Source: Escherichia coli (GTDB lineage: Bacteria > Pseudomonadota > Gammaproteobacteria > Enterobacterales > Enterobacteriaceae). Taken from it: a stretch of 64,000 nt of DNA. Position 1 is the stretch's first letter. Each line of letters opens with the position of its first letter. A program made the translations under genes and the position numbers. Below are positions 12,508-59,200 of the stretch, piece after piece. The notes under the pieces were generated by a model. The model ran no database searches and was not told the DNA's origin. It saw only the letters and a program-made list of their open reading frames with translations. The stretch lies in NCBI RefSeq assembly GCF_050920415.1, contig NZ_CP169309.1; one strand, written 5' to 3'.

Positions 12508-12546
12508 AATGAATAACCATACATATAAATTGAATTTTAATTCATT
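12508..12546. promoter_or_regulatory. ArgR operator (tandem ARG boxes) in argI promoter
   Basis: aatgaataaccatacata and attgaattttaattcatt match the 18-bp ARG box pattern wnTGAATwwwwATTCAnw, 26 bp upstream of argI ATG. Confidence 0.75.
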
Positions 12547-57411: not shown

Positions 57412-58386
57412 ATGCCAGTAATGATTAGCGGCGTGCTGTACGCCCTGTTAGCAGGGTTGATGTGGGGGCTTATATTTGTCGGGCCGTTGATCGTGCCGGA
57501 ATACCCGGCGATGTTGCAGTCGATGGGGCGTTATCTGGCGTTAGGGTTAATTGCGCTACCCATTGCCTGGCTGGGGCGCGTGCGTCTGCGTCAGTTAGCG
57601 CGTCGCGACTGGCTTACGGCCTTGATGCTCACTATGATGGGCAACCTTATCTATTACTTCTGTCTTGCCAGTGCCATTCAACGTACTGGCGCGCCTGTTT
57701 CCACGATGATTATCGGCACCCTGCCGGTGGTTATTCCTGTCTTCGCCAATCTGCTTTATAGCCAGCGTGACGGTAAACTCGCGTGGGGGAAACTCGCCCC
57801 GGCGCTGGTTTGTATTGGCATCGGCCTGGCATGTGTAAATATTGCTGAGTTAGACCACGGACTCCCCGATTTTGACTGGGTACGTTATGCCTCAGGCATC
57901 GTACTGGCGCTAGTCTCCGTGGTCTGCTGGGCGTGGTATGCCTTGCGCAACGCCCGTTGGCTGCGGGAAAACCCAGACAAACATCCGATGATGTGGGCGA
58001 CGGCGCAGGCGCTGGTCACGCTGCCGGTTTCGCTCATCGGTTATCTTGTCGCCTGTTACTGGCTGAATACGCAAACGCCGGACTTCTCCCTACCTTTTGG
58101 CCCCCGTCCGCTGGTGTTTATTAGTCTGATGATTGCGATAGCCGTGCTTTGCTCATGGGTTGGCGCACTTTGCTGGAACGTCGCCAGCCAGCGATTACCA
58201 ACGGTGATTCTCGGGCCGCTGATTGTCTTCGAAACGCTGGCAGGTTTGCTGTACACCTTTTTGTTACGCCAGCAAATGCCGCCGCTGATGACGCTGAGCG
58301 GTATCGCGCTGTTAGTGGTTGGCGTGGTCATTGCGGTCAGAGCAAAACCGGAAAAACCCTTAATTGAACCTGTCTCTGAAAGTTGA
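57412..58386 (+). CDS. ytfF: EamA/DMT-family inner membrane transporter
   Basis: 324-aa polytopic membrane ORF. Confidence 0.85.
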   Translation: MPVMISGVLYALLAGLMWGLIFVGPLIVPEYPAMLQSMGRYLALGLIALPIAWLGRVRLRQLARRDWLTALMLTMMGNLIYYFCLASAIQRTGAPVSTMIIGTLPVVIPVFANLLYSQRDGKLAWGKLAPALVCIGIGLACVNIAELDHGLPDFDWVRYASGIVLALVSVVCWAWYALRNARWLRENPDKHPMMWATAQALVTLPVSLIGYLVACYWLNTQTPDFSLPFGPRPLVFISLMIAIAVLCSWVGALCWNVASQRLPTVILGPLIVFETLAGLLYTFLLRQQMPPLMTLSGIALLVVGVVIAVRAKPEKPLIEPVSES

Positions 58387-58444
58387 CACGCTTGCAGTGA
58401 GTTAAATAAGCCTCTGCTACGTAAGGGTTATAGCATTCACCTTA

Positions 58445-58467
58445 AAGATGCATTTAAAATACATCTT
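58445..58467. promoter_or_regulatory. NsrR-type operator in ytfE promoter
   Basis: aagatgcatttaaaatacatctt, near-perfect 11-1-11 inverted repeat 27 bp upstream of ytfE ATG. Confidence 0.8.
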
Positions 58468-58493
58468 ATCTTATTAAGAATGAGGTATCAGCT

Positions 58494-59156
58494 ATGGCTT
58501 ATCGCGACCAACCTTTAGGTGAACTGGCGCTCTCTATTCCTCGCGCTTCGGCTCTGTTTCGTAAATATGATATGGATTACTGCTGTGGCGGTAAGCAAAC
58601 GCTGGCGCGCGCGGCGGCACGTAAAGAACTGGATGTTGAGGTCATTGAAGCCGAACTGGCAAAGCTTGCTGAACAACCGATTGAGAAAGACTGGCGTAGC
58701 GCCCCACTGGCAGAAATCATCGACCATATCATCGTGCGCTACCACGATCGTCACCGTGAACAACTGCCGGAACTGATTCTGCAAGCGACTAAAGTCGAAC
58801 GCGTTCACGCCGACAAACCGAGCGTGCCAAAAGGGCTGACAAAATACCTGACCATGCTGCATGAAGAGCTTTCCAGCCACATGATGAAAGAAGAGCAGAT
58901 CCTCTTCCCGATGCTCAAACAAGGCATGGGTAGCCAGGCGATGGGGCCAATTAGCGTAATGGAAAGCGAGCACGATGAAGCGGGTGAACTGCTGGAAGTA
59001 ATCAAACACACTACCAATAACGTCACACCGCCGCCGGAAGCCTGCACCACCTGGAAAGCGATGTATAACGGTATTAATGAACTGATTGATGACCTGATGG
59101 AGCACATCAGTCTGGAAAACAATGTGCTGTTCCCGCGCGCGCTGGCGGGTGAGTGA
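58494..59156 (+). CDS. ytfE: Iron-sulfur cluster repair di-iron protein (RIC)
   Basis: 220-aa [45 protein letters not shown]. Confidence 0.95.
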
Positions 59157-59163
59157 TCTAAAA

Positions 59164-59188
59164 GCTGGATGGCATTGCGCCATCCAGC
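59164..59188. terminator. Hairpin between convergent ytfE and cycA
   Basis: gctggatggc attgc gccatccagc perfect 10-bp stem. Confidence 0.7.
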
Positions 59189-59200
59189 ATGATAAAGCCG

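What the first reader, a model, noticed from the sequence alone, without database searches (positions are those of the whole stretch)
58387..58493. Near-perfect NsrR palindrome in the ytfE promoter
aagatgcatttaaaatacatctt is an almost exact 11-1-11 inverted repeat, 27 bp upstream of the ytfE start. This fits the known nitric-oxide-responsive repression of ytfE by NsrR. It is not novel, but it is a clean confirmation that the locus is intact.
Basis: established knowledge. Interest (0 to 1): 0.15.

Follow-up and report, generated by a model that had tools for sequence, protein, structure and literature searches.

The report
Known NsrR operator before ytfE
This is the well-known DNA docking site for the nitric-oxide-sensing repressor NsrR in front of the E. 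coli iron-sulfur repair gene ytfE; it is intact, identical to the laboratory-strain site, and ordinary.

Summary
An 11-1-11 inverted repeat, AAGATGCATTT-A-AAATACATCTT, lies at 58445-58467. Ten of 11 arm positions are complementary, and 26 nt separate it from the ytfE ATG at 58494. It is unique in the 64 kb window and never arose in shuffles.

The window is E. coli (cpdB-ytfH-qorB-ytfF-ytfE-cycA-fklB), and the 23-mer is identical to E. coli K-12's. It differs by one base from the CFT073 ytfE site, which lies under an NsrR ChIP-seq peak. A weight matrix built from 25 other published NsrR sites scores it 29.9 of a possible 31.0 bits; the next best hit in the window scores 16.9 and the best shuffle 19.2.

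The single arm mismatch sits at the y/r position that the published consensus leaves degenerate. It is a G/A polymorphism within E. coli: about 4,200 complete genomes carry A and about 1,040 carry G.

The same 23-mer pattern precedes ytfE, hmp, truncated globin, tehB and nsrR-like genes in at least 120 genome stretches. nsrR is outside the window but present about 35 kb away in the genome that matches at 100%.

Two things remain open: the exact position of the -10 element relative to the operator, and the role of a conserved block just upstream. Verdict: already known, low interest.

The parts
58445..58467 (.). NsrR operator: 11-1-11 inverted repeat AAGATGCATTT-A-AAATACATCTT
   Evidence: Inverted repeat, 10 of 11 complementary. 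Unique in the window, 0 of 100 shuffles. PWM 29.94 of 30.97 bits. Identical to K-12. One base from the ChIP-seq-supported CFT073 site.
58461..58461 (.). The single arm mismatch (A here; G gives the perfect palindrome), a G/A polymorphism at the degenerate r position of the consensus
   Evidence: A G-allele 41-mer query hits 1,036 genomes and an A-allele query hits 4,202, out of 5,426 complete E. coli genomes. The consensus gATGyAT-N5-ATrCATc comes from PMC1274295. The allele costs 0.8 bit in the PWM.
58494..59156 (+). ytfE (RIC, iron-sulfur cluster repair di-iron protein), the regulated gene
   Evidence: 220-aa ORF. NCBIfam YtfE equivalog, 416.5 bits. Pfam ScdA_N plus Hemerythrin. RefSeq annotation.
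58483..58487 (+). Shine-Dalgarno-like GAGGT, 6 nt before the ATG
   Evidence: Read from the sequence. GAGGTA is conserved across genera.
58455..58460 (+). Best -10-like hexamer, TAAAAT (5 of 6, with A2 and T6), at the operator centre; candidate only
   Evidence: Relaxed scan. The strict consensus scan found no promoter. The orientation test at other targets does not support a general -10 role.
58423..58434 (.). Conserved block AAGGGTTATAGC (cross-genus consensus AAAGGGtTATa.C) upstream of the operator; role unresolved: promoter element or co-regulator site
   Evidence: 0.8-1.5 bits per column across 42 ytfE upstream regions from many genera. Also visible in the orthology-based alignment of PMC1274295 Fig S2, which marks a candidate NarP site.
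57412..58386 (+). ytfF (DMT-family transporter), the upstream neighbour on the same strand; the listed ORF starts 9 nt upstream of the RefSeq-annotated start
   Evidence: ORF. RefSeq annotation.

Best explanation
The 23-bp inverted repeat at 58445-58467 is the operator for NsrR, the iron-sulfur-cluster-containing Rrf2-family repressor, in the ytfE promoter. One NsrR dimer places one helix-turn-helix on each 11-bp arm. The site lies within or immediately next to the core promoter, 26 nt before the start codon, so bound NsrR blocks RNA polymerase and keeps ytfE off. Nitric oxide nitrosylates the Fe-S cluster, NsrR loses DNA binding, and ytfE is transcribed to deal with nitrosative damage to iron centres.

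Shown here: the sequence, its uniqueness, its identity to the K-12 site, its near-maximal score against independent NsrR sites, its conservation with fixed spacing before ytfE across genera, its co-occurrence with other NO-stress genes and with nsrR-like genes, and the presence of nsrR in the matching genome.

Taken from the literature: in vivo occupancy (ChIP-seq in CFT073), derepression in nsrR mutants, and loss of DNA binding on NO exposure.

Inferred: occupancy and repression in this particular strain, and steric occlusion of RNA polymerase as the mode of repression.
For: - Geometry and uniqueness.
- Locus identity.
- Identity to the K-12 23-mer.
- CFT073: an NsrR ChIP-seq peak lies about 50 nt upstream of the ytfE start codon (-log10 P 247, 9.65-fold enrichment). 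The ytfE site is the best PatSer hit in that genome (ln P -25.13), and ytfE rises 69.6-fold with nitrate (PMC5320621).
- A symmetrised matrix built from 25 other published sites scores the window site 29.94 bits. The maximum possible is 30.97, the best training site scores 26.1, the next window hit 16.89, and the highest maximum over 200 shuffles is 19.24.
- The exact pattern AAGATGYATTTNAAATRCATCTT occurs in at least 120 genome stretches. It lies directly upstream of hmp in 44 loci, ytfE in 42 (mostly 26 nt to the start codon), Rrf2/NsrR-like genes in 32, truncated globins in 22 and tehB in 5. Representative sequences of each group were confirmed with Pfam and NCBIfam.
- The orthology-based alignment in PMC1274295 Fig S2 shows the site conserved in E. 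coli, Klebsiella, Salmonella and Erwinia.
- ytfE mRNA is 544-fold higher in a Salmonella nsrR mutant (PMC2884951).
- An NsrR equivalog (290 bits against a cut-off of 182) is encoded about 35 kb away in the genome that matches at 100%.
- NO abolishes NsrR DNA binding through its Fe-S cluster (review PMC4601167).
Against: - No binding or expression data exist for this strain.
- The transcription start could not be retrieved, so whether the operator overlaps the -10 element rests on my recollection of the abstract of Bodenmiller & Spiro 2006, which is not held. The strict promoter scan found no sigma-70 consensus in the region.
- The genome-wide pattern scan selected loci by the site itself, so the perfect conservation of the 23 columns follows from how the loci were chosen. 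Only the flanks, the spacing and the gene content are informative there.
- nsrR is not in the window.
Confidence: 0.96

Rival explanations
1. The palindrome works at the RNA level, as a hairpin that terminates ytfF transcription or structures the ytfE 5' leader, rather than as a protein-binding DNA site.
For: It lies between two genes on the same strand, 58 nt after the ytfF stop codon, and is followed by a T-rich stretch, ATCTTATT.
Against: As RNA the region folds to only -6 kcal/mol, z = -1.4, and 20 of 200 shuffles fold at least as well. The stem is A/U-rich and needs its centre opened to make a loop. The terminator scan found nothing. The same 23-mer precedes unrelated genes in both orientations and in divergent intergenic regions, which fits a symmetric DNA operator and not a strand-specific RNA element.
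Confidence: 0.02
2. The palindrome is the site of a different regulator (Fur, FNR, IscR or NarL/NarP) that accounts for the reported effects of fur and fnr mutations on ytfE.
For: ytfE is derepressed in fnr and fur mutants (review PMC9268430). Rodionov et al. predict NarP co-regulation of dnrN/ytfE in enterobacteria.
Against: The same review states that no recognisable Fur or FNR sites are present in the ytfE promoter and that those effects are thought to be indirect. The 23-mer contains no TTGAT-N4-ATCAA, and by my own comparison with the recalled Fur-box consensus it matches 9 of 19 positions. It matches the NsrR matrix almost maximally and lies under an NsrR ChIP-seq peak. Any NarP site would more plausibly be the separate conserved block at 58423-58434.
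Confidence: 0.01
3. It is a chance palindrome in A+T-rich intergenic DNA with no function.
For: Intergenic DNA is A+T-rich, and the NsrR matrix picks up A+T-rich false positives. One example is 12516-12538 in the rraB-argF intergenic region, which scores 16.9 bits.
Against: No shuffle in 100 gives a match at up to 3 mismatches. The PWM score is more than 10 bits above the best of 200 shuffles. The site is conserved across genera at fixed spacing, while sequence further upstream is unalignable.
Confidence: 0.005

Closest known systems
E. coli K-12 ytfE NsrR operator (Bodenmiller & Spiro 2006; Partridge et al. 2009; predicted by Rodionov et al. 2005)
   Same: The 23-bp sequence, the distance to the ytfE start codon and the flanking genes are identical.
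   Different: Nothing differs within the operator. Four substitutions in the 107-bp intergenic region separate the window from K-12: 58393, 58435, 58438 and 58439, the last three just upstream of the operator.
E. coli CFT073 ytfE NsrR site (ChIP-seq, PMC5320621)
   Same: Same locus and geometry, with 22 of 23 bases identical. It is the top-ranked 11-1-11 site in that genome.
   Different: CFT073 carries G at the position equivalent to 58461, making a perfect palindrome. The window, like K-12 and about 78% of complete E. coli genomes, carries A.
hmp NsrR operator of E. coli and the hmp operators of Acinetobacter, Legionella and Bacillaceae
   Same: Same 11-1-11 motif. The identical 23-mer pattern precedes hmp in 44 scanned loci, commonly 27 nt before the start codon.
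   Different: The E. coli CFT073 hmp site has a weaker left arm, TTGATGTATCT, and hmp has additional FNR control. The target gene is different.
IscR type 1 and type 2 sites (the other Rrf2-family Fe-S regulator of E. coli)
   Same: Operators for a dimeric Rrf2 protein, with inverted-repeat architecture.
   Different: The IscR consensus is different (own knowledge). The regulator in the matching genome that fits this motif scores as the NsrR equivalog at 290 bits, against 52.8 bits for IscR, which is below that model's cut-off.

Membership tests
NsrR operator (11-1-11 inverted repeat bound by the Rrf2-family NO sensor NsrR) | [quoted passage not shown] | tested here: met
   Arms are AAGATGCATTT and AAATACATCTT, 1 nt apart, 10 of 11 complementary. 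The left arm equals the top-scoring published half-site. The only deviation is at the consensus y/r position.
NsrR operator (11-1-11 inverted repeat bound by the Rrf2-family NO sensor NsrR) | High score against a matrix built from independently identified NsrR sites, far above background | tested here: met
   29.94 of 30.97 bits with ytfE excluded from training. The best training site scores 26.1, the next window hit 16.89 and the shuffle maximum is 19.24.
NsrR operator (11-1-11 inverted repeat bound by the Rrf2-family NO sensor NsrR) | Sequence agreement with an experimentally occupied site | tested here: met
   Identical to the K-12 23-mer and 22 of 23 identical to the CFT073 site under an NsrR ChIP-seq peak. 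The K-12 ChIP-chip and mutagenesis papers were not held, so that part rests on citation in PMC5320621.
NsrR operator (11-1-11 inverted repeat bound by the Rrf2-family NO sensor NsrR) | Located in the promoter region of an NsrR-regulon gene | tested here: met
   26 nt upstream of an intact ytfE. ytfE is derepressed in nsrR mutants and induced by NO and nitrate.
NsrR operator (11-1-11 inverted repeat bound by the Rrf2-family NO sensor NsrR) | Overlap with core promoter elements (-10), as expected for a steric repressor | tested here: inconclusive
   The strict promoter scan found nothing. The relaxed scan gives three -10 candidates that overlap or flank the operator: TATAGC at 58429, TAAAAT at 58455 and TATCTT at 58467. 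No mapped transcription start could be retrieved.
NsrR operator (11-1-11 inverted repeat bound by the Rrf2-family NO sensor NsrR) | Cognate nsrR gene present in the same genome | tested here: met
   Not in the window. It is annotated at 4673079-4673504 of NZ_CP169399.1, the record 100% identical to the 1.3 kb of the window that was tested, and scores 290 bits on the NsrR equivalog model.
NsrR operator (11-1-11 inverted repeat bound by the Rrf2-family NO sensor NsrR) | Conservation upstream of orthologous genes and association with other NO-stress genes | tested here: met
   42 ytfE orthologues carry the site at nearly fixed spacing. The same pattern precedes hmp, nsrR-like, truncated globin and tehB genes. 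The orthology-based published alignment agrees.
NsrR operator (11-1-11 inverted repeat bound by the Rrf2-family NO sensor NsrR) | NO-sensitive binding of NsrR to this DNA and derepression in this strain | not testable with these tools
   This needs EMSA or footprinting, or reporter and nsrR-knockout experiments.

The most novel reading that the evidence does not exclude
Two minor points are not excluded.

1. The G/A polymorphism at 58461 (perfect palindrome in about 19% of complete E. coli genomes, imperfect in about 78%) may measurably change NsrR affinity. That would set lineage-specific NO thresholds for ytfE induction.

2. The conserved block AAAGGGkTATAkC at 58423-58434 may be a functional co-regulator site, for example a NarL/NarP heptamer, that has not been characterised experimentally at ytfE.

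The probability given is that at least one of the two holds.
Probability: 0.2. Interest if true: 0.25.

Novelty: already known. Interest (0 to 1): 0.08.

Why it matters
It matters little beyond annotation. The site confirms that the NO-responsive control of ytfE is intact in this strain, and it gives a clean positive control for NsrR motif scans. This operator is essentially the consensus: it scores above all 25 other published sites. The survey adds a small point. The exact 23-mer is reused across Enterobacterales, Acinetobacter, Legionella, Methylobacter and Bacillaceae in front of NO-detoxification and repair genes, often next to an nsrR-like gene. This agrees with the broad conservation of the NsrR motif reported in 2005.

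Tried and rejected
- Primary papers: I tried to read Bodenmiller & Spiro 2006 (PMC1347358), Filenko 2007 (PMC1913375) and Karlinsey 2012 (PMC3438343) for the mapped start site, mutagenesis and footprints. None is held.
- Full-text searches: 'ytfE + NsrR + transcription start site' and 'NsrR + 10 element + inverted repeat + hmp' each returned no papers.
- Genome-wide TSS tables: the Kim 2012 supplements do not list ytfE, and the Conway 2014 supplements are not held.
- Strict sigma-70 and terminator scan of 58300-58560: nothing found.
- Central-base test: I asked whether the operator's central TAAAAT is a general -10 by reading the free central base toward the downstream gene. ytfE gives 41 of 41 A, but those sites are orthologous. 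hmp gives T 24, A 15, C 2, G 1, so the idea gains no independent support.
- RNA hairpin or terminator reading: rejected.
- Other NsrR sites in the window: the runner-up hits at 12516 and 11124 fall within the shuffle range. One is in the rraB-argF intergenic region and the other is inside yjgN.
- I did not run the costly protein-seeded genome scan, because the DNA-pattern scan plus the published orthology-based alignment were sufficient.

Full report
**Observation**

Inside it, the only inverted repeat is at 58445-58467: AAGATGCATTT, one central A, then AAATACATCTT. Ten of 11 positions are complementary. Twenty-six nucleotides separate the repeat from the start codon. A GAGGT Shine-Dalgarno-like motif lies at 58483-58487. 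The idealised palindrome, allowing up to three mismatches, matches only here in 64 kb on both strands, and it matched in none of 100 dinucleotide-preserving shuffles.

**Locus**

A 1.3-kb piece around the site is 100% identical to E. coli strain MFDS1022581 (NZ_CP169399.1). It is present in 5,416 of 5,426 complete E. coli genomes at 90-99% identity. RefSeq annotation there reads cpdB, ytfH, qorB, ytfF, ytfE, cycA, fklB. The 220-aa ORF passes the NCBIfam YtfE equivalog model (416.5 bits, cut-off 254) and has the ScdA_N plus hemerythrin domain pair. The gene is intact.

**Comparison with defined NsrR sites**

- The 23-mer is identical to that of a K-12 derivative.
- In uropathogenic CFT073, Mehta et al. 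(PMC5320621) report an NsrR ChIP-seq peak about 50 nt upstream of the ytfE start codon. They list the ytfE site AAGATGCATTTAAAATGCATCTT as the best 11-1-11 match in that genome (ln P -25.13), and ytfE is induced 69.6-fold by nitrate.
- The window differs from that site at one base, 58461 (A instead of G).
- Rodionov et al. (PMC1274295) predicted the same site in 2005 with the consensus gATGyAT-N5-ATrCATc. It is their top-scoring E. coli site (5.99). They note a personal communication that the repeat is needed for NsrR repression of ytfE.
- The window's single arm mismatch falls exactly on the r position of that consensus, so the site matches the degenerate consensus in full.

**Polymorphism**

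Short queries that can only seed on one allele found the G form (perfect palindrome) in 1,036 complete E. coli genomes and the A form in 4,202, out of 5,426. In seven diverse E. coli sequences, this was the only variable column within the operator. Several columns just upstream (58435, 58438-58441) and one downstream (58470) vary.

I built a symmetrised matrix from the 25 distinct non-ytfE sites of Table 4 of PMC5320621. The window site scores 29.94 bits out of a possible 30.97, above every training site (best 26.1). The next best position in the window scores 16.89. Over 200 shuffles, the per-shuffle maximum averaged 13.1 (sd 2.1) and never exceeded 19.24. The runner-up, at 12516-12538, lies in the rraB-argF intergenic region and is within the shuffle range.

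**Comparative evidence**

By my estimate, well under one chance match is expected across the whole collection. The hits come from Enterobacterales, Acinetobacter, Legionella, Methylobacter, Bacillaceae and others. Genes starting just downstream of the site fall into a few groups:

| Downstream gene | Loci |
|---|---|
| flavohaemoglobin hmp | 44 |
| ytfE | 42 |
| Rrf2/NsrR-like regulators | 32 |
| truncated globins | 22 |
| tehB | 5 |

Representative sequences of each group were confirmed with Pfam and NCBIfam. In the ytfE loci the site-to-ATG spacing is almost always 26 nt. Two limits apply:

- These loci were selected by the site itself, so only the gene content, the spacing and the flanks are informative.

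The orthology-based alignment of Rodionov et al. (Fig S2) supplies the unbiased view. The operator is conserved in E. coli, Klebsiella, Salmonella and Erwinia, and degenerate in Yersinia.

**Repressor**

nsrR is not in the window. It is annotated about 35 kb beyond ytfE in the matching genome, and its product passes the NsrR equivalog model (290 bits, cut-off 182).

**Mechanism**

From the literature:

- NsrR is an Fe-S Rrf2-family repressor whose DNA binding is abolished by NO (PMC4601167).
- ytfE mRNA is 544-fold higher in a Salmonella nsrR mutant (PMC2884951).
- The effects of FNR and Fur on ytfE are considered indirect, because no such sites are recognisable in the promoter (PMC9268430).

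The most likely mechanism is therefore a holo-NsrR dimer on the 23-bp operator blocking RNA polymerase, with NO releasing it.

The one step I could not pin down is the promoter geometry. From memory, the abstract of Bodenmiller & Spiro 2006 says the inverted repeat overlaps the -10 element, but that paper is not held. The strict scan finds no sigma-70 consensus. A relaxed scan gives TAAAAT at the operator centre (58455-58460) as the best hexamer, with TATAGC (58429) and TATCTT (58467) as alternatives. A test of whether the central base is oriented toward the downstream gene at non-orthologous targets did not support a general -10 role for the operator centre.

**Rivals**

- RNA hairpin or terminator: weak, at -6 kcal/mol, z = -1.4, with no terminator call.
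- Site for another regulator: contradicted by the matrix score, the ChIP-seq peak and the literature.
- Chance palindrome: excluded.

**Side observations**

- A conserved block (consensus AAAGGGtTATa.C, window 58423-58434) sits about 10 nt upstream of the operator in many genera. It is also visible in the published alignment, where a candidate NarP site is marked, though the colours are lost in the text copy. On the minus strand it reads TAACCCT in E. coli and TACCCCT in several other genera, which resembles the NarL/NarP heptamer (own knowledge). Its role is unresolved.
- In genera where a chemoreceptor gene lies divergent from ytfE, a CRP-like TGTGA-N6-TCACA palindrome lies further upstream.

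**Verdict**

Both the observation and the interpretation are correct, and the feature has been known since 2005-2006. The operator is intact and close to the consensus. Interest is low.

Noticed in passing
window 58423-58434: A conserved block, AAGGGTTATAGC here and AAAGGGkTATAkC across genera, lies about 10 nt upstream of the NsrR operator. It persists across Enterobacteriaceae genera even where sequence further upstream is unalignable. On the minus strand it resembles a NarL/NarP heptamer (TAACCCT or TACCCCT). Rodionov 2005 Fig S2 marks a candidate NarP site in this alignment. It could be a promoter element or a co-regulator site; this is unresolved.
   Followed up: partly
L008, L012, L014, L025, L042, L062, L079, L102, L105 and others: about 30 nt upstream of the conserved block, 50-70 nt upstream of the operator: In genera where a methyl-accepting chemotaxis gene lies divergent from ytfE in place of ytfF (19 loci), a CRP-like palindrome TGTGA-N6-TCACA sits in the shared intergenic region. 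E. coli has no counterpart.
   Followed up: no
window 57900-59200: This ytfF-ytfE stretch is 100% identical to only one of 5,426 complete E. coli genomes (MFDS1022581, an animal-source food isolate from Korea), and the next best match is 97.3%. The 107-bp intergenic region alone is at least 99% identical in 186 genomes. This suggests a rare coding allele or a recombinant segment.
   Followed up: no
window 58461: There is a G/A polymorphism inside the operator: about 1,036 complete E. coli genomes, including CFT073, carry the perfect palindrome, and about 4,202, including K-12 and this window, carry the imperfect one. Any effect on NsrR affinity is unknown.
   Followed up: partly
window 12516-12538: The second-best NsrR matrix hit, ACCATACATATAAATTGAATTTT (16.9 bits), lies in the rraB-argF intergenic region, 34 nt before the argF start codon. 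The score is within the shuffle range. The region looks like A+T-rich arginine-operator DNA (own knowledge) rather than an NsrR site.
   Followed up: partly
L004 (NZ_CM151352.1, strain 09A19CPO004B), locus positions about 385-400: In this genome the sequence departs from ytfE shortly after the operator, and a truncated nikR pseudogene is annotated there. The operator has been left without its gene, either by rearrangement or by misassembly.
   Followed up: no
window 58384-58389: A perfect TTGACA hexamer overlaps the ytfF stop codon, but the best downstream -10-like hexamer, AATAAG (58405-58410, spacer 16), lacks the final T. It is probably not a promoter.
   Followed up: partly
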